This document shows positions 42,524 to 60,522 of a stretch of 64,000 nt of DNA, piece by piece. The number at the start of each line of letters is the position of its first letter. The stretch's first letter is position 1. Below the pieces are notes generated by a model that was given only the letters and a program-made list of their open reading frames with translations, had not been told where the DNA came from and did no database searches. Made by a program: the position numbers and the translations under genes. This stretch comes from Candidatus Hydrogenedens sp. (GTDB lineage Bacteria; Hydrogenedentota; Hydrogenedentia; Hydrogenedentales; Hydrogenedentaceae): assembly GCA_049968235.1 (NCBI GenBank), contig JBMFRC010000001.1, forward strand, positions 288,001 through 352,000, given 5' to 3'.

Positions 42524-43759
42524 TTATCTTTCGTTAGAATTATTCTTCAGGATTCCCCTTACCTTGCTATTTTGTGTCAATAACAAGAAGGAAAGAATTA
42601 CTAAAACAAATATATCACTCAGATGTGAATTTGTTGAAGGTCCACCGGAACCGCAAGATACAATGAAAGTTCTCTTGGCTCCTTTACTCATTACCAGTAT
42701 AACCTCTGTCCCCTTAACAACTTCAGTTCCAACAGAGGGCTCGGTTCGGATTATGCTCCCTTTCGGTACATCTTTGCTATATTCTTCTTTAATCGTTGCG
42801 GATACCTTAAGTCCTGCAGATGTTAGTATTTGAATAGCCTCGTCTTTAGATTTTCCTTTAACATCCGGCACTTTTACTTTCTGAATAGGTTCTCCTTCAT
42901 TACTTCCTTCGGGAGTACCTTCAACTACACCTTCAGGGGTTCCTTCTGGACTACCTTCCTGATGACCTTCGACTGTTCCTTCGCCTTCTGCATTCCCTTC
43001 GACAGAACCTTCTGTGCTTCCTTCTATACTACCCTCTTGCATACCTTCAGGAATGCCTTCTGTTGAACCTTCTTGTGCTCCTTCTCCTTCGAGAGTGCCT
43101 TCTATTATACCTTCTTGCTGTCCTTCGGTGATTCCTTCAACATTTCCTTCGCCTTCTGCAGGCGGTTCTAATGGAAGTATTTTAGGTGCTTTCGGGTCAT
43201 CAAACATGGGAACATAAGCAAATATATCGTTGATTTGGACTTGAGCCAAATTTATTTGTGCATCCCCGGTTTGTTTCATACGGAACAATACTTTGAGCAA
43301 TTCAAGACTTCCCTTAGCACCGATATTTTCAGAACTGCTTCCTGCAATTTTCAGACTACCTGTAGCATTTGCATTAGAGTTATAACTTAACTTCATATTG
43401 CTAACTGCATCACCTAATACGACCTCCATTACCTCCGCATATTCTTTATCGAAATTAATTACAAGAGAGAAGCCCGCTATATTGGATACATTGTTCATTA
43501 CCACAGATACCCACTTTTCAGAGCCTGCTGTTCCAGATAAGTAATCTGTTAATTGGGCATAAACAGTTGCATCCTCTTTTTCTACTCGTGCAAGGGTAGA
43601 CTCCGCAGACAAAGAACCTGCATCTGCCAGCCATTTTAAGTCGCTTATATAGTCTTCATAACTCTTTGCGTCTATTTTCTTTCCTGTTGGCATTACATCT
43701 TTACCTGTTAACCAGCGTTGTAGCATGCTGGAGTCAGCACTATCCACCATTCCATCCAT
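42524..43759 (-). CDS. surface protein segment A: cohesin-like domain, xxEG tetrapeptide-repeat linker, PASTA domain and a C-terminal Cys/Gly-motif + TM + basic anchor (probably the 3' part of a disrupted giant gene)
   Basis: Cohesin-like IAGFSLVINFDKEYAEVMEV...GSLELLKVLFRMKQTGDAQI, about 25 xxEG repeats, and PASTA VPDVKGKSKDEAIQILTSAGLKV. The C-terminus is SCGSGGPS...IFVLVILSFLLL...KVRG. The frame is open upstream to 43855 and encodes a dockerin repeat (SGDFNMDGMVDSADSSMLQRWL). Confidence 0.6.
   Translation of the reverse strand: MDGMVDSADSSMLQRWLTGKDVMPTGKKIDAKSYEDYISDLKWLADAGSLSAESTLARVEKEDATVYAQLTDYLSGTAGSEKWVSVVMNNVSNIAGFSLVINFDKEYAEVMEVVLGDAVSNMKLSYNSNANATGSLKIAGSSSENIGAKGSLELLKVLFRMKQTGDAQINLAQVQINDIFAYVPMFDDPKAPKILPLEPPAEGEGNVEGITEGQQEGIIEGTLEGEGAQEGSTEGIPEGMQEGSIEGSTEGSVEGNAEGEGTVEGHQEGSPEGTPEGVVEGTPEGSNEGEPIQKVKVPDVKGKSKDEAIQILTSAGLKVSATIKEEYSKDVPKGSIIRTEPSVGTEVVKGTEVILVMSKGAKRTFIVSCGSGGPSTNSHLSDIFVLVILSFLLLTQNSKVRGILKNNSNER
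42900..43170 (-). repeat. coding tandem repeat: about 25 units of 12 nt encoding xxEG tetrapeptides
   Basis: Periodic ...ccttc... on the plus strand, which is GAAGG(N) on the coding strand. Similar arrays lie at about 44950-45135, 45545-45715 (including a perfect 21-nt duplication encoding MSEGEG twice), 52330-52440 and 54650-54690. Confidence 0.7.
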
Positions 43760-43845
43760 ATTAAAGTCACCGGATTTCTGAATACAGGGATTTCCTCCTG
43801 TGTTATTTGTCCAATAATCCAGGATATATTGTGTGTCTAAATCGT

Positions 43846-46179
43846 TTACTTCATATTATTATCCGCATCACCAAAGACACATCCGTCTGTAACACACAAT
43901 TGTCCATCTTCTAATATAAGTTCTAACGGTTGTGTAAATGAGGAGATCACATCGTATAGGCGAACTCCATTGCCGGCTCCATCATCCGGAATAAGGTGTA
44001 ACTGTCCACATAAAGGACCTAAAACAGATAAATTGGGTTTAGCAATAATATTAAACAGAGTCCCAGCACCATACAAACTTTCTGCTTTTATTCCTGCTGC
44101 AGCAATTCGAACATTAATTGTCTCACCTTGAGGTATAGCTAATGATGCTATCATCATCCCACTAGTAATACCTGATGGTAATACGGTGATAGTCTCGGGG
44201 TCTGATATTAAGGCAGATGGCAATTCCGAATCAATCTGTATGGATGTTGCTGAAACATCATAAACTGATTTTGAGTTCACGGGAATACGAATAAGTATTT
44301 CATCAAGATTTTGTGGATTCGGTTGTAGCCAATAAAGACTGGTATCTGTTATATTAACCTGTTCAGGGAAGAATACGGTTAAGTATTGTCCACGAACCGT
44401 CTCCGAAGCATCTGATAACACAGTATAACGGTCCACATCACTTACAGCCTGTATGGCATATTGGTAGTAAATCCCTAATTCTACCGCATTATCTATATAT
44501 TCTAATGTTGTTAGATAACCTTCATAAGGCAACCTGTCCGGATTATTCAATCGTTGCCAATCTGTCAATGAATTCCCATCTCTATCTACTGTCCTGCGAT
44601 ACACATTATAGCCAGCAATATTATACTCAGGATTTGTATCCCATGCTACGCGAACACTATGCGGTCCACTATAAGGACGTGGACGGAATGATTTTTGAAT
44701 ATTTCCGGGGTCTAATTCAACAAGCAATTCAGCATTGGTATCCACAGGTTGTATCGTTTTGGGCTTATATTTCCGCTTTGTAAAGTCCAAACGATATGGC
44801 GGTTGCAATGTACCTAAATCTGGAAAGGCAAAACGTCCATTATTATCTGTTAGCACAGGTTCATTCCCTTTACTATCTGCAACGCTAATTTGGACTAATA
44901 CACCGGGAATCGGGCTTTTGCTTATACTATTTATCACCTGACCACGAACACCTGCATATTCGCCTTCGAATGTCCCTTCCGTAGTTCCTTCAATAGTTCC
45001 CTCCGGAATTCCTTCAATTACTCCTTCAGGTATTCCTTCAACATTACCATCCATAGGACCTTCGGGAATCCCTTCGATAACACCTTCAATTGTTCCTTCC
45101 GTTACACCTTCAGGTGTCCCTTCTTCACAGGGTCCTGTGGAAACCCAGATATCCACAGGTATTTCTATTGTATTCTCATAATTACAAGTGCCTTCTACAG
45201 CCATAGGTTCTTGCAAAGCGATGTATCCAGCGGGATAATTATTATCACATACCTCAACAATCTGTCCTAATAATAATCCATAATCTACAATTAATTGTTG
45301 TGCCTCTTCCAATGACATACCTATAACATTAGGAACTATGGTACAGGGTCCACAAGAGATAATCAGGTCAACGATTGTTCCAATCTCTACTGTATTTCCA
45401 CCACCGGGTATTTGTTCAACGACTGTGCCTGCCGGGTATTGGTCATTGCACATCTCAATAATAGCACCAATATTTAGGTTGGCATTACTAATTTCTCCCG
45501 TTGCTTCCTGTTGCGGAAGTCCTATCATATATGGAACTATAGTTGTTTCAATAGCACCTTCGCCTTCAGACATCCCTTCGCCTTCAGACATCCCTTCGCC
45601 TTCGAATAGCCCTTCTGAACTGCCTTCAATACTACCTTCGGTAGTTCCTTCAAATGAACCTTCTCCTTCTACAATACCTTCAACTACACCGGGTTCAGGC
45701 TCTCCAATAACAGGATTGAGTGGGTCTTCAAATCTTGGGGTATGTCCATATTTATCGTGTATCTGAACCTGAACAAATTTAATATCGCCTTTTCCATCTC
45801 GCTTAATCTTAAACTTTACTTTTACCAATTCAACTTCTCCAGAGGTTCCCAACTCTTCTTCACCTCCCGCACTTATCCGCAAACTGCTACTGGAACCAGA
45901 ATTTACTACTTCATAATTCCATCGCCATATATTTGCTGCATTCACAGGTTTTACCTGCTTTACTTCAGCAAAATCACTATCATAATTCAAGACAAATTCA
46001 AATCCTGCCACATTTGTTACTTCATCAGCCACAATGGCAATCCATTTATCACTGCCTGCAGACCCTTCTAATGTGCCACGGAACCACACCTTTACTCCCA
46101 CATTATTCTTTTCTAATTTGGCTAACTTTGCTTGTGCGGATAGGGAACCATGGGAAGCTAACCATTTCAATTCATCCAC
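43846..46179 (-). CDS. surface protein segment B: cohesin-like, EG linkers, 2 PASTA, CarboxypepD_reg-like, Fn3-like, cohesin-like, then dockerin repeat 1 (interrupted). No signal peptide of its own, so it is probably the middle part of a disrupted giant gene.
   Basis: The domains can be read off the translation. The frame is open upstream to an in-frame TGA at 46270-46272, and the upstream region encodes dockerin repeats GDVNNDSVIDSTDEQFVLDYW and GDINLDG*VDSADSSLIQRWL. At the 3' end a -1 shift inside dockerin repeat 1 (GDADNNMK* versus in-frame VNDLDTQYILDYW) leads into segment A. Confidence 0.6.
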   Translation of the reverse strand: MDELKWLASHGSLSAQAKLAKLEKNNVGVKVWFRGTLEGSAGSDKWIAIVADEVTNVAGFEFVLNYDSDFAEVKQVKPVNAANIWRWNYEVVNSGSSSSLRISAGGEEELGTSGEVELVKVKFKIKRDGKGDIKFVQVQIHDKYGHTPRFEDPLNPVIGEPEPGVVEGIVEGEGSFEGTTEGSIEGSSEGLFEGEGMSEGEGMSEGEGAIETTIVPYMIGLPQQEATGEISNANLNIGAIIEMCNDQYPAGTVVEQIPGGGNTVEIGTIVDLIISCGPCTIVPNVIGMSLEEAQQLIVDYGLLLGQIVEVCDNNYPAGYIALQEPMAVEGTCNYENTIEIPVDIWVSTGPCEEGTPEGVTEGTIEGVIEGIPEGPMDGNVEGIPEGVIEGIPEGTIEGTTEGTFEGEYAGVRGQVINSISKSPIPGVLVQISVADSKGNEPVLTDNNGRFAFPDLGTLQPPYRLDFTKRKYKPKTIQPVDTNAELLVELDPGNIQKSFRPRPYSGPHSVRVAWDTNPEYNIAGYNVYRRTVDRDGNSLTDWQRLNNPDRLPYEGYLTTLEYIDNAVELGIYYQYAIQAVSDVDRYTVLSDASETVRGQYLTVFFPEQVNITDTSLYWLQPNPQNLDEILIRIPVNSKSVYDVSATSIQIDSELPSALISDPETITVLPSGITSGMMIASLAIPQGETINVRIAAAGIKAESLYGAGTLFNIIAKPNLSVLGPLCGQLHLIPDDGAGNGVRLYDVISSFTQPLELILEDGQLCVTDGCVFGDADNNMK

Positions 46180-46269
46180 ATATCCTTTGCCCGCTGTTGA
46201 GATTTTTGGAGGTGTAATACTTTTTCTTGCTAACCAACGCTGAATTAAACTGGAATCCGCACTATCTAC

Positions 46270-47574
46270 TCACCCATCGAGATTAATATCTCCTGATTTT
46301 AAGATGCATGAATGTGCACCTACTTTCCTAACCCAATAATCCAGAACAAATTGCTCATCTGTACTATCAATTACACTATCATTATTTACATCTCCATGAA
46401 TACATCCCCCTGAAACGCATAATCGTCCATCCACAAGAAGCACAGGTAAGGTTCTGTCTGATTTTGAATTACATTATATAACCGAACACCATTTCCCACA
46501 CCATCATCAGGAACTAAATGTAATAAACCACACTCATTCAAAAGATTTAAGCGAGGTTTTGCAAGAATATTAAATAATACTCCAGAACCATATAAACTCT
46601 CTGCTATCCCACCAGCAGATGATATACGAACATTAATTTTATCTCCATTTCTAACGGCATTGGCACTTATATTCATACCTGCGGTAATACCTGAGGGCTC
46701 CACCGTAATTGTGTCGGGATTGAGCAATAAACTTCTGGGCAATTCCGCATCGATTTGTATGGAAGTAGTGGAAACATCATATACAGCCTCTGAATTAACA
46801 GGTATTCTTACTAATTGTTGTTATGGATTTTGAGGGTCTCTTTCCCAGAGAAACATACCGCTATCTTTATAATTTACTTGTTCCGGGAAGAAAATAGTTA
46901 AAAATTGCCCTACTACATCTTCCGAAGCATCCGAAAGATTGGAATAACGGTCGACATCACTAACTGCCTGTATTGCATATTGATAGCGAATACCCGGTTG
47001 TATTGCGGTATCTGTATATTCTAATCCTCCAATATATCCTTCATAAGGAGGTAATCCCGGATTATTCAATTTTGCCCAAATAGAACTTCCTACTGTCCGA
47101 CGATATACATTATAGCCAGCAATGTTATATTCAGGATTTGTATCCCATCCAATACGGACACTATTGGTTCCTCCATAAACACGAGGAATGGTGGGTCTCT
47201 GAATATTTCCCGGCTCTATTTCCGCAAAAAGTTCTGCACCCGAATCAACAGGTTGAACCGTTTTCGGTTTAAATTTATTCTTTGTAAAATCCAGACGATA
47301 GGGAGGTAATAAACTCCCTAAATCGGAAAATTCAAATAGCCCATTTTTCATCTGTTAAAACAGGCTCTGTACTCTGTTTATCTGCAATACTTATTCCAAC
47401 AAGTACTCCCTCTACAGGTTTTTTGCTAATACTGTTAATAACCTGTCCCTTAACACTAAAGACTTTTTCTGCTACTGCTTGATTAGTAATAGCACATGCT
47501 ATTACTAATAGTGATATGCTCAAAAATATATTATTTTTTACAAAAATTGACTTTGCCCTACTTTTTGCATTCAT
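46270..47574 (-). pseudogene. surface protein segment C: signal peptide, CarboxypepD_reg-like, Fn3-like, cohesin-like, dockerin; disrupted by one frameshift at ~47340, an in-frame TAA at 46812-46814, a frameshift at ~46420 and a TGA at 46270
   Basis: Three ORF fragments (47332-47574, 46821-47351, 46386-46742) plus a dockerin-encoding stretch align residue-by-residue with the C-terminal half of segment B. The disruptions are a +1 in an A5 run, a CAA-like codon replaced by TAA, a -1 in a TT/TTT run, and TGA where the paralog has ATG. Confidence 0.6.
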
Positions 47575-47745
47575 TTTAGGTCTCCTTTGATTTATTCGCT
47601 CCAGTAGTTGGTTATTTTTTTATCCTTATTAAATAGCATTTAATAACAAAATTTGCCTGTTTTTTTGATAATCGTTGCCTCAAATAAGAACTATGATTCT
47701 TATGTGATTAGTGGTGAATAGAAGAAAATAATACTATTTTTAGAC

Positions 47746-49925: not shown

Positions 49926-52184
49926 ATGCATTTCTGGCTGATTAATGACAATGTTTTATTAAAATCTTCCCGTGCAGACATCGGTGGAAAAGGCTGGGGG
50001 CTGGTTCGATTAAAATTACAGGGATTAAATGTGCCACCTTTCGGAATAATCAGCACAGAAGGTGTGAAATATAAACTCTGGAAAACCGATACAGATTTTC
50101 AAAATGCAATAATGGCATGGTGTAAAGAGATATGGGATTGTTCCATAAGTAAGAAAGTAATCGTCCGCTCATCTGCATGTGAGGAAGACCATCAACATCA
50201 TTCTTTTGCAGGAAAGTTTTTAACAGAGGTTATAACAAAGCCAGAAGAACTTGTTCCAACACTGGACAGGATAGCCAAACATTATGCTTTAACTATAAAA
50301 ATGGATACGGGGAATTTTTCTGAAGGTCCCCATGGACTTGCAATTATTCTCCAGGAGTTTGTCAGTGGTGAAATCTCCGGCGTATGCTTTTCGACCCGAC
50401 CTATGAATGCAAATCCTCAACAAGTATATTGTGAAGTAGTAAATGGTGAAAATAAGTTGTTGGTTGATGGGGAAATACAACCCACTCGGATACTTTTTTA
50501 TCCCTCCACCGCAGAATTGATAGATTTTCAGGAAGGTTCTAATGGACCTGAATCAATACCTGAAGAATTATTAATAGAATTATCTCATGGGCTAATGAAG
50601 ATGGAATGGGATTACCGCACTGCAGTGGATATGGAATGGACATGGAATGGTAACAAGGTATGGTTTTTACAGATTCGCCCAATTACAAAGGTAACTCCTT
50701 CCCATAATTTATATCCAAAGGAATGTGCTACTTGCTGGTTTTTTGACCAACGTTTTATTGAACCGATTACAACTATTACCCAAACCACACTTATTCCGTT
50801 AATCCTGAGAAAGGCAATCACAGAGGGACTTAACATGCGACGAAAAAATACCCCCATTGAACCGTATTACTTTGGGGGTCAGGTGTATATCCCCCATCGG
50901 GCTTACTTCGATTTACTGGAGGGTTGTCCTAAATGGTGGCTTTCCTCCGATTTAAAACTGTTATTCCCTAATAACTGTGGTTGCCCGCATAAAAAAAAGA
51001 ACTTCCTGGGAATAGAATTCTGGCTGGATGCTTTTCGTTCATTGTTAAAACACTGGCGTGATGCTATTTTTGTGTTATGTCGCTGGGGACAATGGAAGAA
51101 GGATTTATCAAAGAAATTAAGTCTGTGGAATAAGGAGGATTTGTCAGAGATTACAACAGATGAATGGGTAACGCAATGGGAGCAATGCCAGAGATTATCC
51201 GAAGAATTTTTAGAAATACATCGCTGGGCAATACTCTGGTCCAGTTATGTATATCGTTTAGGGGGAAAGTATATCGTTCGTGGTAAGGAAAGACAGTATC
51301 CCTCTATTACGACACGGGCAAATCACATATTGACATCTTATTTATTCACCCGTGACATAAAATTATTAGCCCTCCTTCGCACTGAATATTCACACCGCAC
51401 AGAAAGTCTCGATTTTATATCTCCTCGATGGGGAGAATGGCTTTCCGGTGAGGAACAAAATGAATTGTTTAAAACGCAATTATTAGAGGAGAGGAAAGAT
51501 ATTCCATTAACATCACTGCAAACAAGGGAAAAAGCAGGTATTCTGTATCGTATTTTCGCAAAGTTTATACATCTGCGTGAGGAACAACGATTTGAATGGG
51601 AAAAAATATTAAATGTACAGAAAAAATTATTAAAGGAAGCAGGTAAACGATTGGTAGAAAAAGGTATCTTGATGGAGATAAATCAGGTCTGGTTTATAAG
51701 CGGGCTGGAATTAATGGAAGCACTTATAAAGGATAAGCCAATTAATCTAAAAGAAGTTTTGCTACGCCAACATCAATGGTGCGTTGAACATATATTTACA
51801 AAACCATTATTTATCAACGAAGGTGGTTTCATACTATCTACTTCCGAAAAAGATAAAGATACATGGTCAGGCTGGGGTGTGTCCGAAGGAAGAGTAAAAG
51901 GGACTGCCTATGTGAGCAGTAATCCGACTTCACTCCCATCCAATATCGCACATCCTCGTATTCTTGTAACACCTTGTTTAAATCCCGGACAGACATGGTG
52001 TCTGCAATACTGGGACGGTGTTCTATTGGAACGAGGCAGTGAACTGTCTCATCCTGCTATCATTGCACGGGAGATGAATATCCCCATGATTGCGAATTTA
52101 CCTGAGATTACACATAAACTAAACACGGGCGATTTAATTTATATAGATGCAACTTATGGTAAAGTTAGCCGTTTAAAATCTTAA
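49926..52184 (+). CDS. PEP-utilising enzyme family protein: N-terminal PPDK-type ATP-grasp (PEP/pyruvate-binding) domain plus C-terminal phosphohistidine mobile domain (rifampicin-phosphotransferase-like architecture)
   Basis: N-terminus ADIGGKGWGLVRL. The C-terminus has GRVKGTAYV... and ...ILVTPCLNPGQTW...ERGSELSHPAIIAREMNIPMIA (swivel His). There is no PEP-utilising TIM-barrel domain. Confidence 0.65.
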   Translation: MHFWLINDNVLLKSSRADIGGKGWGLVRLKLQGLNVPPFGIISTEGVKYKLWKTDTDFQNAIMAWCKEIWDCSISKKVIVRSSACEEDHQHHSFAGKFLTEVITKPEELVPTLDRIAKHYALTIKMDTGNFSEGPHGLAIILQEFVSGEISGVCFSTRPMNANPQQVYCEVVNGENKLLVDGEIQPTRILFYPSTAELIDFQEGSNGPESIPEELLIELSHGLMKMEWDYRTAVDMEWTWNGNKVWFLQIRPITKVTPSHNLYPKECATCWFFDQRFIEPITTITQTTLIPLILRKAITEGLNMRRKNTPIEPYYFGGQVYIPHRAYFDLLEGCPKWWLSSDLKLLFPNNCGCPHKKKNFLGIEFWLDAFRSLLKHWRDAIFVLCRWGQWKKDLSKKLSLWNKEDLSEITTDEWVTQWEQCQRLSEEFLEIHRWAILWSSYVYRLGGKYIVRGKERQYPSITTRANHILTSYLFTRDIKLLALLRTEYSHRTESLDFISPRWGEWLSGEEQNELFKTQLLEERKDIPLTSLQTREKAGILYRIFAKFIHLREEQRFEWEKILNVQKKLLKEAGKRLVEKGILMEINQVWFISGLELMEALIKDKPINLKEVLLRQHQWCVEHIFTKPLFINEGGFILSTSEKDKDTWSGWGVSEGRVKGTAYVSSNPTSLPSNIAHPRILVTPCLNPGQTWCLQYWDGVLLERGSELSHPAIIAREMNIPMIANLPEITHKLNTGDLIYIDATYGKVSRLKS

Positions 52185-55100
52185 GTTCGAAAGGTCTGAC
52201 TTGTCCAACGGGTGTTCTCTCCTTCGCATACCACTCATAGCAAGTAATAACATGCCCATCAACACAAAATCCAATAGATATTTTAACCAATTGTCTCCAT
52301 CCCTGGATTTATGATTACACCCACAAATTCCAGTATTTTGCCCCTCTCCTTCCCCTTCTCGAGTGCCCTCAACATTCCCTTCCACTATTCCTTCCGGATT
52401 ACCTTCTTGAGTTCCTTCCAGAGTTCCTTCACTAACTACTATACCTGCTTCTGCTTTATCAATATATCCATCCTTATTGGTATCAGCACTATCAAAAGTA
52501 TCTCGGGACAGGGTGGAATATCGTGCCACTGCTTCTTCATAGGAAACTTTCCCATCCTTATTCGTATCCACCAAATCAAAATTTGTTTTTAGGTCATTTA
52601 TGAATTGCTCTACCCCGGTTATGGTAATAGAAGCACCTTTTGCATTAATTACTCCATACCAACTCAGGTCATCTCCAAATTCCCCCTTTATTTTTACTTC
52701 GCGTATTTGAATGTTTATTTTCTTTGATGTCATCGTTGTGGGTTTAAACTTTATTTGTATAATTCGTCCTTTTTCTTTTGTTGTAATGGGTTTTTCGCTA
52801 CTTATTGAAACTTTCAAATAACCCTCACCGACTTCTGTATCCTTCTTAAAGTTGCTGGCAATATCTGCCATGTTTAATCCGTAGAAATTTATACCTTCAT
52901 CATAGGTTAAGAGCAAATCCATTCCCGCAACACCTAATAATGAACTTAATTCTATACCTGTGCGATATTCATTGTTTGAGTCCGGTGTTAGGTTATCTAC
53001 AACAATTTCCACCGTACGATTATTTTCCGTTTCTAACAAGGCTTTTTCCCCAATCACGGTTGAACTCGGATTGATTGGAAGCCCTGCCAATTTACGCAGT
53101 AGTAACGACACATCCGCACAATCTAAAATTCCATCTCCATTAAAATCACCTCTCCGTTTATCACATTCCAAATCAACAATACCTGCTTTGCGAACAATCT
53201 TGCGCAGGAACACAATCGTATCAGACATACCAATGTAACCATCAGTATCCATATCTCCATAGATGCAACGACTACTAATACAATTCGTATCTGGGTTTTC
53301 TTCCAATACATTGAGTTGTCCATGAACCAATTCTACTGGCAATTCCTTCTGCTGGGTATCTTTAATAATAACCTTCTGCAATTTCAGGTCTGTATCCTGA
53401 GCACAACTTCCTGCCACTGTATTCTGTCGCACACGAAAAACCATATCAAAGAGGTGTCCTTCTCCATAAAGCACTTTCTTCTCATTATCAACTCTGGGTC
53501 CCGCATGGAATTTTATAACACCCTGTGTACGGGTATCCGAAACAACCTCAAGATTTCGTGTTACAACCGTTTTTTGAACCTCTACAAGTTCAAGCACTGT
53601 GTTGTTGTAACTCACATTAATATCAATCGTATAGGGTTCCAATCCCCGTACACTGTTTATATTTATCGGTATCTGAATTGTATCCCCACTTCCTTCTGGT
53701 ATCCAATCGATTGTAGGTATCCATACACGTAGCTTACCCGGTTCTGCTTTGACAGGCTCTGTAGGGTCGCTTTGTTGTTGATTGGTAGCAATAGCAATCA
53801 AACGATAATACCATGCCCGAGAGGTATCCACTTCGTTATCTGTGTAATTTGTACCTGTAATAATATTTGAGGAAACAGTAATCCACGGTCCGTTTCGTGT
53901 TTCGCTTCGTTCTAATTGGTATCCTGCAAGATTTCGCTCCACATTAGGCTCCCAGATAAGATAAACATGGTCTATCCCTGAAAAAACCTGCAATCCATGA
54001 GGGGTTGAAATCTTTGTCCCAGCAGGGTCAGGACCATTACTTACAATTAACTCAACCGTTGTTCCGTTCAATACGGAACTTCCTCCAACAGGAGATTGTC
54101 CCATTACAACATTTTGTGAAACGGTATCGCTATACTGCATTACTGTACGGGTCAGCAAACCCGTAGATTGGATTTGCCCTATTGCAGAAGTTATATTCTG
54201 CCCAATAACATCCGGTACCGTGATATATGTGTTTCCAGAACATTGTCCTGTTGAAACCCAAATTGTAACTTCCGCACCTCGATTTACTCCACTATAAGCA
54301 ATTGGTGATTGGCGTATTACCTGCCCCATGGCAACATAATTGTTACATTCCCGTTCCACCTTAACATGCAAATCCGCTATCTGTATTGCCTCATTCGCCT
54401 GCTGTTCGCTTCTCCCTACAACATCTGGAACCAATACACCCGGACATAATCCACTGGATACAGTTAACTGAATATAGGTTCGTGATGAAATTACATCTCC
54501 CGATGATGGGATTTGACTCAGGACATTTCCCTGTGCCACTGTGTTACTACAGTTATAAGTCGTACGGATTCTATTCAGTCCTACACCTTCAAGAGTGTTT
54601 TTTGCTTGTTGTTCTGTCATACCGACCACCCCCGGAATAGTTACGAAGATTTCTCCTTCTCCTGTTCCTTCGCCCTCTCCCTCTCCTATAAGGTCTACAA
54701 TCCATTTAAGTAATGGATAATCTGTCCCTTCATTTGCAACCCATATATTAACAAAATCCCAATCGTTGTATGTTGCTTGCTTATACATTTCTATTGTGGT
54801 TTTTCCTGTTCCACCATCGGAAAACGATGTCCCGGCAGATTGCACATCCCAATAACTGGACACTACTGTTCCTCCATCGTTATACCCAACAAGCCCACCA
54901 ACATATAGTTTCCCCGTAACATTGGCACTGCTATAACAATTACGAATATTTGTTTCAAAAGAATTCTCAGTATTCATTTGGTACCCAACCAATCCACCGA
55001 TAAACGAATTTCCGCCAACAAAGGAATCATAAACAAAACTATCTGTTATATTGCCACCATAATTTATCCCTACAAAACCACCCACTCCATAATCAGCTGT

Positions 55101-57416
55101 TTCGCCATTCACAAGTATTTCACCGGCAACACATCTTAATATTTTCCCCTTATTTCCACCGACGAATCCACCAATACTATCATCTTGGCTTATTCCCGAA
55201 ATATAACTTGCCAGGACACCACATTCCACAATTTCACACTCACTATCAACAACAACACCCGCTATAGCACCCACAAAATAATACCCTGTAAAACTACTTT
55301 CAACAATTATTAAATTTTGAATCTTTCCCGGAGAGGTTACAATCCCAAACAGAGCTGTATAATCCGCCTCAGAATTATCAATATAAAGGTTAGAAATAAT
55401 ATGGTTTTGCCCATTAAAATTACCTCTAAATGGTTTTTCCCATGTTCCTATGGGTCTAAACCCTTTCCCATTATTCCAGTTGACTGTATCACTTGCATCT
55501 ATATCTTGAGTCAAAATATATGAACCAAAAGGTGGATAATCCGGGTCATTCCCTATCTTTTGCAACTCCTCAATACTATCTATTTCAATAGTTGGACAGG
55601 GACCTTTGAAAACGAACAAATATACTTCGCTGTTCTGTATAACTTGTGCTCCACCTTCGGGTGATTGACCTATAACAGTACCCACCGGAGTAATTTCTTC
55701 ACCGCACCCATAATCGACAATTACATGGAAACCCATTTCTTGTAGAGTAGTAACAGCATTTGCTTCTGTCATTCCCATTACATCCGGCATGTTAACATAA
55801 ACACAGCGTCCTGTTGAAACAACAATATATACAGTGCTATCTATTTGCACAACATTTCCTGCAATGGGTTCCTGCTCTATAACAACCCCTTCAGGAATAT
55901 TGTCATCACAACGGTATAGGACATTGGCAGAGAGATTTTGTACCTGAACTGTATTTATAGCGGTAGTTTCATCCATCCCGATAACATCAGGTATTGTTAT
56001 AGAACAGGGTCCTCGTGAAATAAGCAAAGAAATCTCCACATCAGGTAATTCATTTGTGCCCGGTACGGGGTTTTGAGTTATCACTGCCCCAGAAGGAACT
56101 CCATCATGGCAATCATAATATGTAGTGATTGTACCCGTAAACCCGGAGGAACGAAGTAAATTTATAGCTTCTGTCCCATTCATTCCTACAACATTAGGTA
56201 GGGGGATGAAACACGGACCTGTGGACACAATAATGGAAACAGTACCATTAAGCTCAACCGATGCCCCTGCTCCGGGCTGTTGGTCCATAACTACCCCCGC
56301 AGGATATATATTGCTACAACTATAAGACACATCAGCAATCAATCCCAATCCATTTAACATATTAACTGCATTTTCTTCCATCATTCCTAACAAACTTGGA
56401 ACTTCCACCGTATGTTGTATATTTATAACCCATCTCAAATAGGGATAGTCTGTTCCCTCTTCTATACCCCATACATTCGTGAAATCCCAGCCTGCATAAG
56501 TCGCCTGTTGTTTCATTTCTCCCGTAGTTTTCCCTGTTCCACCATCAGAAAAGAACATTTGGGACACAGTCGTATCCCAATAACTGGATGTTACAGTCCC
56601 CCCATCATTAAATCCGATAAGTCCACCTATATACATGGTTCCTGCTACAGCCGAACTACTATAACAATTTGTAACTGTGCCAGTGCTTTTCTTTGAATTT
56701 TCGAGTATTCCAACCAGACCACCGACACCGTATGCTCCTGCTATTGAGGTGATATATGAAGATGAATACACACAACTATTTATAATAACTCCACCTGTAT
56801 TACGACCCACCAATCCACCCACTCCATATTGAGCATAACTATCATAAATTGTCGAATTAGAAACTACACATCTATCTATAACTCCATAATTTCCTCCTAC
56901 CAATCCACCAACACTATTATATATGCTTCCCATCCCTTCAATATCTGAAGAGGCAACTCCACATTCTCTGATTTCTCCCGCCATATTTAATCCAACCAAT
57001 CCCCCGATAAATAAAGAACCTGCGATATTGGAATTAAATAAAATAACATTGTGAACATTCCCGCCGGATATATTTCCAAACAAACCTGCAAATTCAGATT
57101 GTCTATTAATATAAAGATAGTAAATACCATAATTCTGACCATCAAAACTCCCTGTAAATGGATTATTCGTATCCCCTATCGGTTTAAATCCTCTGCCACT
57201 ATCCCAATTAATTGTATCGCTGGCATCTATATCCCGTGTTAATACATAATTCCCGTTAAGTGGATATTCAGGCTCATTCCCTATTCTCTGCAAATCTACA
57301 ATATTGCTTATAGGAATACCTTGTGCGGAAACCAAAATACACATGCAAAAAACAAAAATGGTCAATAGTGATAAAATATAGGTAGATTCTCTCGTAGACA
57401 TTTTACAATACCTCAA
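52173..57416 (-). CDS. giant (1747-aa) secreted surface protein: signal peptide, GLUG-like beta-helix module, 4 PASTA, second GLUG-like module, EG linker, 3 PASTA, Fn3-like, cohesin-like, dockerin, cohesin-like, EF-hand pair, xxEG linker, C-terminal Cys/Gly-motif + TM + basic anchor
   Basis: An intact ORF. Repeated GGLVG motifs occur in two ~300-aa modules that are about 50% identical to each other. There are seven PASTA units (…PDV[IV]GM…). The dockerin is GDMDTDGYIGMSDTIVFLRK…GDFNGDGILDCADVSLLLRKL and the EF-hand pair DTNKDGKVSYEE / DTNKDGYIDKAE. The C-terminus is GICGCNHKS…LLDFVLMGMLLLAMSGMRRRE. Confidence 0.8.
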   Translation of the reverse strand: MRYCKMSTRESTYILSLLTIFVFCMCILVSAQGIPISNIVDLQRIGNEPEYPLNGNYVLTRDIDASDTINWDSGRGFKPIGDTNNPFTGSFDGQNYGIYYLYINRQSEFAGLFGNISGGNVHNVILFNSNIAGSLFIGGLVGLNMAGEIRECGVASSDIEGMGSIYNSVGGLVGGNYGVIDRCVVSNSTIYDSYAQYGVGGLVGRNTGGVIINSCVYSSSYITSIAGAYGVGGLVGILENSKKSTGTVTNCYSSSAVAGTMYIGGLIGFNDGGTVTSSYWDTTVSQMFFSDGGTGKTTGEMKQQATYAGWDFTNVWGIEEGTDYPYLRWVINIQHTVEVPSLLGMMEENAVNMLNGLGLIADVSYSCSNIYPAGVVMDQQPGAGASVELNGTVSIIVSTGPCFIPLPNVVGMNGTEAINLLRSSGFTGTITTYYDCHDGVPSGAVITQNPVPGTNELPDVEISLLISRGPCSITIPDVIGMDETTAINTVQVQNLSANVLYRCDDNIPEGVVIEQEPIAGNVVQIDSTVYIVVSTGRCVYVNMPDVMGMTEANAVTTLQEMGFHVIVDYGCGEEITPVGTVIGQSPEGGAQVIQNSEVYLFVFKGPCPTIEIDSIEELQKIGNDPDYPPFGSYILTQDIDASDTVNWNNGKGFRPIGTWEKPFRGNFNGQNHIISNLYIDNSEADYTALFGIVTSPGKIQNLIIVESSFTGYYFVGAIAGVVVDSECEIVECGVLASYISGISQDDSIGGFVGGNKGKILRCVAGEILVNGETADYGVGGFVGINYGGNITDSFVYDSFVGGNSFIGGLVGYQMNTENSFETNIRNCYSSANVTGKLYVGGLVGYNDGGTVVSSYWDVQSAGTSFSDGGTGKTTIEMYKQATYNDWDFVNIWVANEGTDYPLLKWIVDLIGEGEGEGTGEGEIFVTIPGVVGMTEQQAKNTLEGVGLNRIRTTYNCSNTVAQGNVLSQIPSSGDVISSRTYIQLTVSSGLCPGVLVPDVVGRSEQQANEAIQIADLHVKVERECNNYVAMGQVIRQSPIAYSGVNRGAEVTIWVSTGQCSGNTYITVPDVIGQNITSAIGQIQSTGLLTRTVMQYSDTVSQNVVMGQSPVGGSSVLNGTTVELIVSNGPDPAGTKISTPHGLQVFSGIDHVYLIWEPNVERNLAGYQLERSETRNGPWITVSSNIITGTNYTDNEVDTSRAWYYRLIAIATNQQQSDPTEPVKAEPGKLRVWIPTIDWIPEGSGDTIQIPININSVRGLEPYTIDINVSYNNTVLELVEVQKTVVTRNLEVVSDTRTQGVIKFHAGPRVDNEKKVLYGEGHLFDMVFRVRQNTVAGSCAQDTDLKLQKVIIKDTQQKELPVELVHGQLNVLEENPDTNCISSRCIYGDMDTDGYIGMSDTIVFLRKIVRKAGIVDLECDKRRGDFNGDGILDCADVSLLLRKLAGLPINPSSTVIGEKALLETENNRTVEIVVDNLTPDSNNEYRTGIELSSLLGVAGMDLLLTYDEGINFYGLNMADIASNFKKDTEVGEGYLKVSISSEKPITTKEKGRIIQIKFKPTTMTSKKINIQIREVKIKGEFGDDLSWYGVINAKGASITITGVEQFINDLKTNFDLVDTNKDGKVSYEEAVARYSTLSRDTFDSADTNKDGYIDKAEAGIVVSEGTLEGTQEGNPEGIVEGNVEGTREGEGEGQNTGICGCNHKSRDGDNWLKYLLDFVLMGMLLLAMSGMRRREHPLDKSDLSNLRF

Positions 57417-57649: not shown

Positions 57650-58135
57650 ATGTATCACATTCGCAAACCAAAATTATCAGAAGTTATACAATTAAAAACA
57701 TTAATAGATAATGCAGTTAGTAAAGACCTCGTTCTTCCGAGAACTTTAGAGGAACTGTACGAAAATGTTCGTGATTTCTATGTGTATGCAGATGAAAATG
57801 GTCTTGCTGGTTGCGTGTCTCTGCATATTGACATGGAAGACCTTGCAGAGGTAAGAACACTGATTGTTCGTGATGACCTACAGCGGAAAGGTATCGGAAG
57901 AATGTTATTGCACGCTGTTTTGAATGAAGCACGCGAATTGGGTATTCCCAGAGTCTATGTTCTAACACGGTGTCCCGAATTTTTTGAAAAACAGGGTTTT
58001 AAAAAAACCTTATTAGAACAACTTCCTTACAAAATACGAAAAGATTGTGTCCGTTGCCCCAAATATGGAATATCATGCGATGAAGTCCCCATGATTTTGC
58101 ATTTAAATGATAAGAAAAAAGAAAGTTCTCTATGA
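57650..58135 (+). CDS. GNAT family N-acetyltransferase (short ArgA-like amino-acid N-acetyltransferase)
   Basis: GNAT motif A is RKGIGRMLLHAVLNEARELG. The gene overlaps the proC start by 4 nt. Confidence 0.6.
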   Translation: MYHIRKPKLSEVIQLKTLIDNAVSKDLVLPRTLEELYENVRDFYVYADENGLAGCVSLHIDMEDLAEVRTLIVRDDLQRKGIGRMLLHAVLNEARELGIPRVYVLTRCPEFFEKQGFKKTLLEQLPYKIRKDCVRCPKYGISCDEVPMILHLNDKKKESSL

Positions 58136-58971
58136 AAGGAGTATTTATGTCCTCCGATGAAATAAAAAATACTCATTTATCTCTTTTAGGTTTTGGAAAT
58201 ATGGGACAGGCAATTGTAAAAGGGTTATTGCGAAAAAATATCTTTTTACCTTCCCAGATATTTGTGTTCGACCCAGCAGATGATAAACAACAGGATGCAA
58301 AAAACATCCATCTTCAACTGGTTACCCATATAGAAGATTTGCTGAATAATTCAAAAATATTACTTGTTGCGGTAAAACCACAAATGATACAGTCAGCACT
58401 TCAACCATTGATAGCCTCAATAGGAAAAGAGGTATTAATCATTTCTATTGCTGCGGGCATATCTATCCACTATTACAAAAATCTATTGGGGAAATCAGAC
58501 CTCCGGATAGTCCGAACCATGCCAAATACACCTGCCCTGGTCGGAGAAGGAATTACCGCAATTAGTTTTAGCGAACAATGTTCGGAACAGGATAAAATCC
58601 TTGCTCAACGAATATTCCAATCTGTTGGGAAAACTGTTCTCGTTTCAGAGGAACAAATTGATATCGTTACCGCTGTAAGTGGAAGTGGACCTGCCTATTT
58701 CTTTTATTTGTGTGAATGTATGATAGAAGCAGGCAAATCTTTGGGGTTATCCGAAGAAATAGCACTATCTCTGGTTCGACAGACTTTTTATGGTTCTGCA
58801 TCACTTCTCATGAGTGGAGATGATTTGCCAGAGGTTCTCCGTGCTCGTGTAACTTCAAAAGGTGGAACTACAGAATCAGCCATAAAAACGATGGAAGGAA
58901 AAAATCTTAAATCTATTGTTATAGAAGCAATTCATTCCGCATACCATCGTGCCCGGGAACTTGGAAAATAA
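58132..58971 (+). CDS. proC: pyrroline-5-carboxylate reductase
   Basis: LGFGNMGQAI Rossmann fold, then RTMPNTPALVGEG and TSKGGTTESAI, all ProC motifs. Confidence 0.85.
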   Translation: MKGVFMSSDEIKNTHLSLLGFGNMGQAIVKGLLRKNIFLPSQIFVFDPADDKQQDAKNIHLQLVTHIEDLLNNSKILLVAVKPQMIQSALQPLIASIGKEVLIISIAAGISIHYYKNLLGKSDLRIVRTMPNTPALVGEGITAISFSEQCSEQDKILAQRIFQSVGKTVLVSEEQIDIVTAVSGSGPAYFFYLCECMIEAGKSLGLSEEIALSLVRQTFYGSASLLMSGDDLPEVLRARVTSKGGTTESAIKTMEGKNLKSIVIEAIHSAYHRARELGK

Positions 58972-59043
58972 TGTAGAGATAATAAGAAACGAGACGCTCA
59001 AGAATGATACAATTTATACAATAATCGTATTTGAGGTCAATCC

Positions 59044-59652
59044 ATGAGAAGAGACAAAGTCATATCGGAAGTATTGGGTGCCGAAACCATACTAACGCCC
59101 AGTGAGATTTACGCACAACGTTTCCCGAAAAGTTTTGTTGGAGGTTACTCGGTAGAATCAGTAGACGAATTCCTCCATCGTATAGCAGATACCATAGAAT
59201 TACTTCTGGACCGTATCCAGGAATTGAAAGAGAAAATTGATGAACAAACAAAACTGGTTGAATTTTATCGTCAGGAAGAGTCCGTTTTACGAAGTGCCTT
59301 AAATTCAGCCCAGAAATTAAATGAAGATATTATAGAAAGTGCTCAAAGACAAGCTGAATCTATCATAACAGAGGCTCAAACAAGGGCACAACAAATACCT
59401 CTTCGTCTGGAACAGGAAATACAACACCTGATACATCTACGGGATAGATTCCATCAAGAGGTTAAAACCGTCTTGCTCTCATTTCAATCTATGCTTTCCG
59501 AATATGAAGCCACAAAAATAAAAAATATATCCCCGGAAAATCGCGAAGTAATATTGGGCGAACTTCGCAAATCCCTTGACCAGGCACTATCGGTAGATTT
59601 TAACCTGGATTCATTAACCGAAGAAGAAGAACAAAATGACAACGCCGAATAA
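59044..59652 (+). CDS. DivIVA domain-containing protein
   Basis: N-terminal DivIVA motif (FPKSFVGGYSVESVDEFLHRIADTIE) followed by coiled coil. Confidence 0.7.
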   Translation: MRRDKVISEVLGAETILTPSEIYAQRFPKSFVGGYSVESVDEFLHRIADTIELLLDRIQELKEKIDEQTKLVEFYRQEESVLRSALNSAQKLNEDIIESAQRQAESIITEAQTRAQQIPLRLEQEIQHLIHLRDRFHQEVKTVLLSFQSMLSEYEATKIKNISPENREVILGELRKSLDQALSVDFNLDSLTEEEEQNDNAE

Positions 59653-60505: not shown

Positions 60506-60522
60506 AATAGGGAACTGTTACT

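What the first reader, a model, noticed from the sequence alone, without database searches (positions are those of the whole stretch)
54070..56430. Seven PASTA domains in a non-PBP, non-kinase extracellular protein, with more in the tandem paralog
Two PASTA arrays lie at about 55600-56430 (4 units) and 54070-54700 (3 units). Units include VEVPSLLGMMEENAVNMLNGLGL..., PLPNVVGMNGTEAINLLRSSGF..., ITIPDVIGMDETTAINTVQ..., VNMPDVMGMTEANAVTTLQEMGF..., VTIPGVVGMTEQQAKNTLEGVGL..., LVPDVVGRSEQQANEAIQ... and ITVPDVIGQNITSAIGQIQSTGL.... Segments B and A add three more units. PASTA repeats are classically confined to PBP2x-type transpeptidases and PknB-type kinases, so this stand-alone arrayed use on a scaffold is atypical.
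Basis: partly seen in the sequence, partly recalled or inferred. Interest (0 to 1): 0.55.

Follow-up and report, generated by a model that had tools for sequence, protein, structure and literature searches.

The report
PASTA-domain rods in a Hydrogenedens surface protein
Seven genuine PASTA domains sit in a large secreted protein with no kinase or penicillin-binding enzyme part, from a Candidatus Hydrogenedens-like bacterium; they probably act as stiff spacers, and public metagenome data hold many similar but unstudied proteins.

Summary
One gene (52173-57404, minus strand, 1743 aa) encodes seven PASTA domains in arrays of four and three. Each unit passes Pfam's threshold on its own (45-53 bits against a cut-off of 23.2). 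A confident AlphaFold model of array 1 superposes on the linear PASTA rods of S. aureus PrkC and M. tuberculosis PknB. POTRA and BON are excluded.

The protein has no kinase, transpeptidase or other catalytic domain. Its order is signal peptide, GLUG beta-helix, PASTA x4, GLUG beta-helix, PASTA x3, FN3, cohesin, dockerin-like module, cohesin, EF-hands, C-terminal membrane anchor.

An 81%-identical ortholog lies in conserved gene order in Candidatus Hydrogenedens terephthalaticus.

The claim that this use is atypical holds only against characterised proteins. A profile of these units finds 52,241 cluster representatives. The top 150 carry 7-34 PASTA units, and very few of 70 sampled have a kinase domain.

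Six of the seven units carry a strongly co-occurring cysteine pair, so a disulfide staple is inferred. Among homologs the number of PASTA units varies widely between and after GLUG blocks.

Best reading: rigid stalk and connector modules, with peptidoglycan binding possible but untested. The "tandem paralog" is distant, separated by three unrelated genes, and disrupted.

The parts
52173..57404 (-). Whole gene, 1743 aa: a secreted, C-terminally anchored multi-module protein with no catalytic domain detected.
   Evidence: ORF list and translation; Pfam hits PASTA, Glug, Cohesin and EF-hand; 81%-identical full-length ortholog in Ca. Hydrogenedens terephthalaticus; no HExxH motif.
57324..57404 (-). 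N-terminal signal peptide (aa 1-27, ...CILVSA|QG).
   Evidence: Read directly from the translation: hydrophobic core followed by an A-x-A-like site. This is inference; no predictor was run.
56412..57323 (-). GLUG beta-helix block 1 (aa 28-331).
   Evidence: Pfam Glug, 8 stretches over both blocks. AF2 model pLDDT 92.7, pTM 0.92. Best PDB matches are 3n6z (BACOVA_03286, E 1.1e-8) and streptococcal IgA1 protease entries 6xjb and 6xja.
55596..56411 (-). PASTA array 1: four units (56211-56411, 56004-56210, 55803-56003, 55596-55799), each with a Cys pair (363/398, 432/467, 499/534, 567/603).
   Evidence: Per-unit Pfam scores 45.1-51.1 bits. AF2 pLDDT 95.9. Foldseek matches 3py9, 3m9g, 2kui and 5e12. 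phmmer match to 2kui at E 2e-16. Cys positions.
54690..55595 (-). GLUG beta-helix block 2 (aa 604-905), an internal duplicate of block 1.
   Evidence: Pfam Glug best stretch at aa 802-830. Block 2 is 51% identical to block 1 in alignment A5.
54027..54647 (-). PASTA array 2: three units (54444-54647, 54240-54440, 54027-54227). Units 5 and 6 have Cys pairs (952/987, 1020/1055). Unit 7 is canonical, with Tyr in place of Cys and no terminal Cys.
   Evidence: Per-unit Pfam scores 50.1-52.8 bits; alignment A2; Cys positions.
53730..54026 (-). FN3-like domain (approximately aa 1127-1225).
   Evidence: phmmer match to PDB 3mpc 'Fn3-like protein', E 4.3e-5, aa 1149-1218.
52635..53729 (-). Cohesin, dockerin-like EF-hand module, cohesin (approximately aa 1226-1590; boundaries approximate).
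   Evidence: Pfam Cohesin E 3.8e-12 with 2 stretches, best at 1239-1366. Dockerin_1 scores only 13.9 bits against a cut-off of 22.9, at aa 1382-1439.
52425..52634 (-). EF-hand pair (approximately aa 1591-1660).
   Evidence: Pfam EF-hand_7, EF-hand_1, EF-hand_6 and EF-hand_5, aa 1599-1652.
52176..52424 (-). E/G-rich linker and C-terminal tail: a GxCGC motif, about 14 residues, a transmembrane helix, then RRR.
   Evidence: Translation. The same tail type recurs in orthologs and in many PASTA-array proteins. No NCBIfam model matches it.
42527..47619 (-). Disrupted distant paralog carrying 3 PASTA units (45343-45546, 45127-45345, 42677-42880). Module order: signal peptide, CarboxypepD_reg, FN3, cohesin, dockerin, cohesin, PASTA x2, CarboxypepD_reg, FN3, cohesin, dockerin, cohesin, linker, PASTA, tail.
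   Evidence: Pfam. Frame map shows 3 frameshifts and in-frame stops TAA at 46821-46823 and TGA at 46270-46272. BLASTP gives 23-36% identity to the main protein. No such gene is seen downstream of the ortholog in related genomes.

Best explanation
The seven units are bona fide PASTA domains. They are used as structural modules of a large, non-enzymatic cell-envelope protein of a Candidatus Hydrogenedens-like bacterium.

The protein is exported by an N-terminal signal peptide and held by a C-terminal transmembrane tail. It is built as beads on a string: two repeats of a GLUG beta-helix head followed by a PASTA array, then FN3, cohesin, a dockerin-like module, cohesin, and EF-hands.

The PASTA arrays most likely form stiff, linear rods like those of PknB and PrkC. 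Six of the seven units are further locked by an intradomain disulfide that ties the C-terminal linker to the end of strand beta-2. The rods would act as variable-length connectors and stalks. They would space the beta-helix binding heads and project them away from the membrane, while the cohesin and dockerin-like modules mediate assembly with other surface proteins.

Shown: domain identity, fold, linear arrangement in the model, absence of catalytic domains, Cys co-occurrence, copy-number variability among homologs, and purifying selection.

Inferred: export and topology, formation of the disulfide, the stalk role, and cohesin-dockerin assembly.

Ligand binding (peptidoglycan or another glycan) by some units is not excluded and could coexist with the stalk role.
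For: Identity and fold:
- Pfam whole-protein E 3.2e-85 with 7 stretches; each of the seven units scores 45-53 bits alone.
- AF2 pLDDT 95.9. The model superposes on three linear PASTA domains of the S. aureus kinase (3m9g, TM 0.82 normalised to the target, rmsd 3.1 A over 204 columns). It fits the compact PBP2x pair much less well (TMq about 0.2).
- Linear PASTA rods are established for PknB and PrkC (PMC3601408). Total PASTA length, not only ligand contact, matters for PknB function (PMC6428115).

No enzyme:
- No Pkinase, Transpeptidase or peptidase hit, and no HExxH motif.
- The GLUG block matches BACOVA_03286 (3n6z) and streptococcal IgA1 protease entries. That this corresponds to the non-catalytic N-terminal beta-helix of the protease rests on my own knowledge of those structures.

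Connector behaviour:
- Architecture strings in homologs (G = GLUG block, P = PASTA) are GPPPPGPPP, GPGPGP, GGPPPPPGPPPP, P10-G and G-P16.
- 93 of 120 GLUG homologs have no PASTA and carry other domains instead, for example PF18998 and PF05342.

Disulfide:
- Over 1969 PASTA units from 188 proteins, both Cys are present in 338, only the first in 34, only the second in 11, and neither in 1586.
- The pairs are conserved in the 81% ortholog. Within each array, intradomain pairing leaves no Cys unpaired.

Selection:
- dN/dS is 0.13-0.18 for the PASTA arrays. That is purifying, but looser than for the cohesin and dockerin-like modules (0.04-0.14).
Against: - No experiment exists on any protein of this type.
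- PASTA domains of kinases and of S. aureus PBP1 do bind peptidoglycan or muropeptides (PMC3601408, PMC9426605). A binding role therefore cannot be dismissed, and no sequence rule reliably separates binders from non-binders (PMC9426605).
- pTM 0.62 means that inter-domain geometry is only moderately certain.
- Localisation is unknown. The window encodes a LolA-like protein, which suggests an outer membrane. A protein anchored in the inner membrane would then sit in the periplasm next to peptidoglycan unless the C-terminal tail is a sorting signal.
- dS is near saturation, so the dN/dS values are rough.
Confidence: 0.55

Rival explanations
1. Peptidoglycan anchoring. The PASTA arrays bind the cell's own peptidoglycan or its precursors. 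They would tether this membrane-anchored protein, and anything bound through its cohesins, to the sacculus in the periplasm.
For: - Family knowledge: PrkC and PknB PASTA domains bind muropeptides, and S. aureus PBP1 PASTA domains bind cell wall (PMC3601408; PMC9426605).
- The closest sequence and structure matches are kinase-type PASTA domains.
- A LolA-like gene in the window suggests an outer membrane, so an inner-membrane anchor would place the arrays near peptidoglycan.
- The PASTA arrays are under purifying selection.
Against: - No conserved binder motif could be tested.
- Unit number varies from 1 to 16 among GLUG homologs and up to 34 elsewhere, and other GLUG homologs carry different repeat domains in their place.
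- If extended, seven PASTA units plus two beta-helices, FN3 and two cohesins would probably exceed the width of a periplasm. This rests on general knowledge and was not measured.
- Some PASTA domains are reported not to bind muropeptides. This also rests on my own knowledge and was not checked here.
Confidence: 0.25
2. Capture of foreign cell-wall debris. The arrays act like carbohydrate-binding modules for peptidoglycan of other, dead cells. They would form part of a cellulosome-like cohesin-dockerin surface assembly used to scavenge dead microbial biomass.
For: - Cohesin domains are present (E 3.8e-12), with a dockerin-like module in the same protein and a Dockerin_1 hit above threshold in the paralog.
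- PASTA is combined with peptidase and other domains in related proteins, for example P0061 with Peptidase_S8 (PF00082) and P0047, which its source names a C45 family hydrolase.
- An HtrA-like protease and an M14 carboxypeptidase are encoded in the window.
Against: - No peptidoglycan hydrolase or other degradative enzyme with a dockerin was found in the window.
- The lifestyle argument is speculation. No paper in the searched library links PASTA to Hydrogenedentes.
- The variability argument against the anchoring rival applies here too.
Confidence: 0.12
3. Transmembrane sensor. The PASTA arrays sense muropeptides and signal into the cell, as PASTA kinases do.
For: The only support is the homology of the units to kinase PASTA repeats: NCBIfam PknB_PASTA_kin, best stretch on model positions 364-563, 254.7 bits.
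Against: - There is no kinase or other cytoplasmic output domain. Only about 17 residues follow the C-terminal transmembrane helix.
- The NCBIfam score is below the family cut-off of 450.
Confidence: 0.03

Closest known systems
Extracellular PASTA arrays of Hanks-type kinases (M. tuberculosis PknB, S. aureus PrkC/Stk1, B. subtilis PrkC, S. pneumoniae StkP)
   Same: - Same domain family and fold, and the best sequence and structure matches (2kui E 2e-16; 3py9 E 1.4e-15; 3m9g target-normalised TM 0.82).
- Tandem units of about 67 aa in a linear arrangement, located outside the cytoplasm.
   Different: - No kinase domain.
- The arrays lie in the N-terminal half of a protein anchored at its C-terminus, not directly after an N-terminal transmembrane helix.
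- There are two arrays, each following a beta-helix block.
- Six of seven units carry a Cys pair that replaces the canonical aromatic residue.
- The host appears to be a diderm candidate phylum rather than Firmicutes or Actinobacteria (for the taxon; LolA for the outer membrane).
C-terminal PASTA pair of class B PBPs (S. pneumoniae PBP2x, S. aureus PBP1, B. subtilis PBP2B)
   Same: Same Pfam family. Foldseek hits 7o4c, 7o61, 2z2l and 1qmf at E 1e-4 to 1e-6.
   Different: No transpeptidase or pedestal domain. The compact PBP-type pair superposes poorly on the modelled rod, with TMq about 0.2 and rmsd 13-16 A.
Uncharacterised 'PASTA domain-containing proteins' of Hydrogenedentota and Planctomycetota in public databases
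   Same: - Same architecture class: GLUG and PASTA, with or without EF-hands and the same tail.
- An ortholog at 81% identity lies in AWNW01000014.1.
- Relatives carry 1-16 units, and other proteins carry up to 34 units.
   Different: None in kind; this gene is one member. None of these proteins has been studied. No paper in the searched library mentions PASTA together with GLUG or Hydrogenedentes.
Beta-helix domain of M26 IgA1 proteases and BACOVA_03286 (the GLUG domain)
   Same: The two GLUG blocks have this fold (3n6z E 1.1e-8; 6xjb and 6xja E 2e-4 to 8e-4).
   Different: No M26 catalytic domain and no HExxH motif.
Rod-like repeat stalks of Gram-positive surface proteins (SasG/Aap G5-E repeats), as a functional analogy
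   Same: Tandem small beta-rich modules that form an elongated stalk carrying a distal binding domain. Only weak shape-level Foldseek hits were found (4wve, 4fum; probability about 0.15).
   Different: Unrelated fold and family. The analogy concerns the proposed role only.

Membership tests
PASTA domain (Pfam PF03793) | Sequence match above the curated gathering score for each unit | tested here: met
   All 10 units in the window score 35.1-74.6 bits against a cut-off of 23.2, and no other family is hit. The whole protein matches at E 3.2e-85.
PASTA domain (Pfam PF03793) | Small alpha/beta fold: short beta-1, one helix, and a three-stranded sheet, about 65-70 aa | tested here: met
   AF2 pLDDT 95.9 with strand-helix-strand-strand-strand repeated four times. 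Foldseek gives probability 1.00 to PrkC, PknB, PBP1 and PBP2x PASTA structures. Single-domain matches: 3ouv TMt 0.90 at 1.3 A, 5e0y TMt 0.84 at 1.5 A.
PASTA domain (Pfam PF03793) | Extracytoplasmic location | tested here: inconclusive
   The translation shows an N-terminal signal-peptide-like sequence and a single C-terminal transmembrane helix. No predictor or experiment was used.
PASTA domain (Pfam PF03793) | Binding of beta-lactam, muropeptide, lipid II or peptidoglycan | not testable with these tools
   No reliable sequence signature exists. The Arg/Glu predictor is reported to have failed for S. aureus PBP1 (PMC9426605).
PASTA kinase (NCBIfam NF033483, PknB/Stk1 family) | N-terminal Hanks-type kinase domain, transmembrane helix, then C-terminal PASTA repeats; score at or above 450 bits | tested here: not met
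   Score 254.7 bits, with the best stretch on model positions 364-563 of 563. No Pkinase Pfam hit.
Class B penicillin-binding protein (PBP2x type) | Transpeptidase domain (PF00905) with an N-terminal pedestal, followed by PASTA | tested here: not met
   The Pfam scan at E<=1 lists no transpeptidase or PBP dimerisation domain.
M26 IgA1-specific metalloprotease | GLUG beta-helix N-domain together with an HExxH zinc-protease domain | tested here: not met
   The beta-helix is present. There is no HExxH motif and no M26 catalytic-domain hit.
Cohesin-dockerin (cellulosome-like) scaffold protein | Cohesin module or modules | tested here: met
   PF00963 E 3.8e-12, 47 bits against a cut-off of 24.1, 2 stretches.
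Cohesin-dockerin (cellulosome-like) scaffold protein | A true dockerin, and dockerin-bearing enzyme partners | tested here: inconclusive
   Dockerin_1 scores 13.9 bits against a cut-off of 22.9 in the main protein. A fragment of the disrupted paralog scores 24.6 bits, above the cut-off. No dockerin-bearing enzyme was seen in the window.

The most novel reading that the evidence does not exclude
PASTA may not be only an accessory of cell-wall enzymes and kinases. In Hydrogenedentota and Planctomycetota-type bacteria it may be a widely reused extracellular module with a disulfide-stapled subclass. On that reading it builds giant surface rods that also bind peptidoglycan or another glycan, for example to capture cell-wall debris of other microbes. 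These proteins would be delivered by a so-far undescribed C-terminal sorting signal (a Cys-Gly motif, a spacer of about 10-20 aa, an LGDLFL-type transmembrane helix, and an Arg cluster).
Probability: 0.15. Interest if true: 0.6.

Novelty: new variant of a known kind. Interest (0 to 1): 0.35.

Why it matters
Almost everything known about PASTA comes from kinases and PBPs of Gram-positive bacteria, where the domain is read as a peptidoglycan or beta-lactam sensor.

This gene and its many metagenomic relatives show the same fold reused in bulk in large proteins with no enzyme domain. Arrays reach 34 units, and the named examples come from poorly known candidate phyla. The domain often carries a paired-cysteine staple.

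If these arrays are inert rods, then annotations such as 'beta-lactam-binding protein with PASTA domain' on these proteins are misleading. If they bind peptidoglycan, they would be a new class of cell-wall-binding surface proteins.

Either way this is a database-level insight about domain use rather than a new mechanism. The gene itself has a near-identical, already deposited ortholog.

Tried and rejected
Only PASTA is hit by sequence, and all significant PDB fold matches are PASTA structures.
- Kinase or PBP fragment, or a mis-called gene: rejected. The ORF is intact and full length, with a signal peptide. Orthologs of 1729-1741 aa share the same domain order, and no catalytic domain is present.
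- PASTA-only word-index homolog search: it returned just 16 hits and missed even the orthologs, so it was useless for a census. It was replaced by an exhaustive profile search.
- Arg/Glu 'peptidoglycan-binder' residue rule: it could not be mapped without the reference sequences, and it is reported to have failed for S. aureus PBP1. It was not used.
- Literature searches for PASTA with GLUG, PASTA with Hydrogenedentes, and stand-alone PASTA gave zero or irrelevant papers.
- NCBIfam search for the C-terminal tail as a known sorting signal: no hit, apart from a sub-threshold NPXTG match for one related tail.
- AFDB Foldseek search: the library was unavailable.
- Alternative genetic code as an explanation for the stops in the paralog: rejected. 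The stops are of two kinds (TAA and TGA), frameshifts accompany them, and the main gene has no internal stops.
- Promoter and terminator scan: counts did not exceed the shuffled expectation in any informative way.
- Functional link to the divergent DivIVA, Maf, LolA and ProC genes: the gene order is conserved, but only among close relatives (73-81% identity), so it carries no information.
Full report
**1. What is there**

The finding lies inside a single long ORF on the minus strand, 52173..57416. The probable start is the ATG at 57404, giving 1743 aa.

Pfam gives PASTA (PF03793) at E=3.2e-85 with seven stretches. It also gives the GLUG motif (8 stretches), Cohesin (2 stretches, E=3.8e-12), several EF-hand families, and a sub-threshold dockerin.

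Scanned one at a time, the seven units of this protein score 45-53 bits against a gathering score of 23.2. The three extra units elsewhere in the window score 35-75 bits. Every unit hits only PASTA.

Exact coordinates:
- Array 1: 56211-56411, 56004-56210, 55803-56003, 55596-55799.
- Array 2: 54444-54647, 54240-54440, 54027-54227.

A six-frame scan of the whole window with an HMM built from these units finds only these seven and the three units in ORFs 43846-46179 and 42524-43759.

**2. Fold**

An AlphaFold2 model of aa 329-604 (17-sequence alignment) has mean pLDDT 95.9 and pTM 0.62. It shows four repeats of strand, helix and three strands.

Foldseek against the PDB returns only PASTA structures as significant matches:
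- S. aureus PrkC/Stk1: 3py9 at E 1.4e-15; 3m9g at target-normalised TM 0.82 and rmsd 3.1 A over 204 columns.
- M. tuberculosis PknB: 2kui, 5e12, 5e10.
- Then the S. aureus PBP1 and S. pneumoniae PBP2x PASTA pairs.

Plain sequence search of the PDB agrees, with PknB 2kui at E 2.1e-16.

The good superposition on the three-domain kinase rod, against the poor one on the compact PBP2x pair (TMq about 0.2), indicates a linear kinase-like arrangement in the model.

**3. The protein around the arrays**

There is no kinase, transpeptidase or peptidase domain and no HExxH motif. The NCBIfam PknB_PASTA_kin model scores 254.7 bits against a cut-off of 450, with its best stretch on model positions 364-563 of 563.

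The domain order, N to C, is:
- signal-peptide-like N-terminus;
- GLUG block 1 (aa 28-331);
- PASTA x4;
- GLUG block 2 (aa 604-905);
- a short E/G linker;
- PASTA x3;
- an FN3-like domain (PDB 3mpc, E 4e-5);
- cohesin, a dockerin-like EF-hand module, cohesin;
- an EF-hand pair;
- an E/G-rich linker;
- a tail with a CGC motif, a transmembrane helix and RRR.

An AF2 model of GLUG block 1 (pLDDT 92.7, pTM 0.92) is strand-rich throughout. Its best PDB matches are BACOVA_03286 (3n6z, E 1.1e-8) and streptococcal IgA1 protease entries 6xjb and 6xja. From my own knowledge of those structures, the matched part is the non-catalytic N-terminal beta-helix. The scaffold therefore looks like a binding or adhesin-type protein, not an enzyme.

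**4. Origin and conservation**

The best genomic match is Candidatus Hydrogenedens terephthalaticus (AWNW01000014.1). It carries a full-length ortholog of 1729 aa, 81% identical, with all Cys pairs conserved.

Gene order is conserved around it in that genome and, on the upstream side and for the PPDK-like gene, in a third relative at 73% identity. On one side lie genes for a GNAT acetyltransferase, ProC, a DivIVA-like protein, a LolA-like protein and Maf. On the other lie a PPDK-like gene, then ThiE and an HtrA-like gene.

Rough Nei-Gojobori estimates give the following dN/dS values:
- PASTA arrays: 0.13-0.18.
- GLUG blocks: 0.12-0.16.
- Cohesin and dockerin-like modules: 0.04-0.14.

PASTA array 1 is the fastest-evolving folded part (61-75% identity). 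dS is near saturation, so these values are approximate. They show purifying selection with somewhat looser constraint on the arrays.

**5. How unusual is this?**

The full-length search found many GLUG-plus-PASTA proteins. Several are named 'PASTA domain-containing protein [Candidatus Hydrogenedens sp.]'. None of the 120 listed hits has a kinase or transpeptidase Pfam domain.

A profile of the window's ten units was searched exhaustively against 1.84 billion cluster representatives. It matched 52,241 proteins at E<=1e-3, 28,811 at E<=1e-10 and 6,701 at E<=1e-30. The best 150 are proteins of 520-5204 aa with 7-34 units.

I scanned 70 of these, taken at even steps down the ranking, against Pfam:
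- All 70 have PASTA.
- Pkinase occurs in 3 of 35 in one batch. In the other batch it is not among the 25 families listed, all of which are matched by at least 2 members, so at most 1 member has it.
- No transpeptidase family is listed in either batch.
- Partner domains are EF-hand, WD40, NHL, PKD, RHS, TIG, LamG and CarboxypepD_reg.

Named members come from Planctomycetota (a 3298-aa protein with 30 units) and Hydrogenedentota.

So the classical statement that PASTA belongs to PBPs and kinases describes the studied proteins. It does not describe what sequence databases now hold. I found no paper in the searched library that mentions PASTA together with GLUG or Hydrogenedentes. Database names are the only description I found for this class.

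**6. Features that bear on mechanism**

(a) Cysteine pairs. Six of the seven units have Cys at profile column 32 and at column 67. Column 32 follows strand beta-2 and usually holds Tyr or Phe. Column 67 is the last residue, in a G-x-C motif. The positions are 363/398, 432/467, 499/534, 567/603, 952/987 and 1020/1055.
- Over 1969 evaluable units from 188 proteins, the counts are: both Cys 338, first only 34, second only 11, neither 1586.
- Relatedness inflates the significance, but the coupling is plain.
- Intradomain pairing leaves no unpaired Cys in either array.
- From the strand order in the model, both positions lie at the C-terminal pole of the domain. A disulfide would clamp the inter-domain linker.

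(b) Copy number and position vary freely among homologs. Writing G for a GLUG block and P for a PASTA unit, the architectures are:
- GPPPPGPPP in this protein and three orthologs;
- GPGPGP, GPGPGPPP, GGPPPPPGPPPP, P10-G and G-P16 in others.
93 of 120 GLUG homologs have no PASTA and carry other domains instead, for example PF18998 and PF05342.

(c) Published work shows that kinase PASTA arrays are linear rods. It also shows that overall array length matters for PknB function, in addition to ligand contacts (PMC3601408; PMC6428115).

**7. Interpretation**

The best-supported reading is that the arrays are rigid, partly disulfide-stapled rods. They would serve as connectors and stalks between and behind the beta-helix heads of a surface or envelope protein, whose cohesin and dockerin-like modules mediate assembly. 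I put this at about 0.55.

The rivals are:
- Binding to the cell's own peptidoglycan, about 0.25. This rests on family knowledge that kinase and S. aureus PBP1 PASTA domains bind peptidoglycan (PMC9426605). No sequence rule could test it.
- Capture of foreign cell-wall debris within a cohesin-dockerin assembly, about 0.12.
- A sensor role, about 0.03. Only a short tail of about 17 residues follows the transmembrane helix.

Binding and stalk roles are not mutually exclusive.

**8. The 'tandem paralog'**

The three further units lie in a region (42527-47619, minus strand) that reads as one gene of about 5.1 kb. Its module order is signal peptide, CarboxypepD_reg, FN3, cohesin, dockerin, cohesin, PASTA x2, CarboxypepD_reg, FN3, cohesin, dockerin, cohesin, linker, PASTA, tail.

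It is broken by three frameshifts, one at an A5 run, and by two in-frame stops (TAA at 46821-46823 and TGA at 46270-46272). It has no GLUG block. Its shared modules are 23-36% identical to the main protein. Three unrelated genes separate it from the main gene. No such gene is seen downstream of the ortholog in the two related genomes examined. It is a distant, probably decayed paralog rather than a tandem copy.

**9. Verdict**

This is a new variant of a known kind. The Cys-stapled subclass, the GLUG-PASTA architecture and the recurrent C-terminal tail appear to be undescribed in the literature I could search.

Interest is moderate to low (0.35). The gene has a near-identical deposited ortholog, and there is no evidence of a new mechanism. 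It does point to a large, unstudied use of a well-known domain.

Noticed in passing
window 52176-52300 (-); also 42527-42680 (-); proteins P0001-P0004, P0009, P0010, P0122, P0145, P0158, P0168, P0227, P0232, P0237, P0279 and others: A recurrent C-terminal tail: a Cys-Gly(-Cys) motif, about 10-20 residues, a hydrophobic helix (often ...LGDLFLxGLxL...), then an Arg/Lys cluster. It ends this protein, its orthologs and many PASTA-array proteins. It looks like a sorting signal, but no NCBIfam model matches it.
   Followed up: partly
window 42527-47619 (-): A large surface-protein gene with cohesin, dockerin, PASTA, CarboxypepD_reg and FN3 modules and an internal duplication at about 65% identity. 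It is broken by 3 frameshifts and 2 in-frame stops, so it is a pseudogene or carries assembly errors. It is not seen at this position in two related genomes.
   Followed up: yes
proteins P0013, P0027, P0029, P0031, P0045, P0046, P0059, P0110, P0129 (not in the window): A different conserved C-terminal module in GLUG/PASTA homologs...H(A/S)SDYNPxDWxIsLsELLRlIQFFNxgGYxPCPxxEDGYCPG. It is cysteine-rich and has no transmembrane helix. Its function is unknown.
   Followed up: no
window 54648-54689, 52300-52424, 43000-43250, 44950-45126, 45550-45680 (-), approximate: Long low-complexity E/G-rich linkers (EGxxEG-type periodicity) separate the modules in both surface proteins. Homologs such as P0123 have them too.
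   Followed up: no
window 38155-41601 (+): A 1148-aa ORF that joins multihaem cytochrome c modules (NapC/NirT-like and c7/c3-like) to a C-terminal cytochrome b561-type membrane domain. An FMN reductase gene follows it.
   Followed up: no
window 57650-61143 (+) and L001, L035: A divergently transcribed block (GNAT, ProC, DivIVA-like, LolA-like, Maf) is conserved next to the PASTA gene in three related genomes. DivIVA and Maf are associated with cell division, but the genomes are too closely related for the linkage to mean much.
   Followed up: partly
proteins P0176, P0198, P0200, P0202, P0203, P0230, P0247, P0249, P0262, P0266 (not in the window): A subgroup of large PASTA-array proteins begins with a zinc-ribbon-like CPxCG...CPxCGY N-terminus instead of a signal peptide or kinase domain. 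This suggests yet another uncharacterised PASTA architecture.
   Followed up: no
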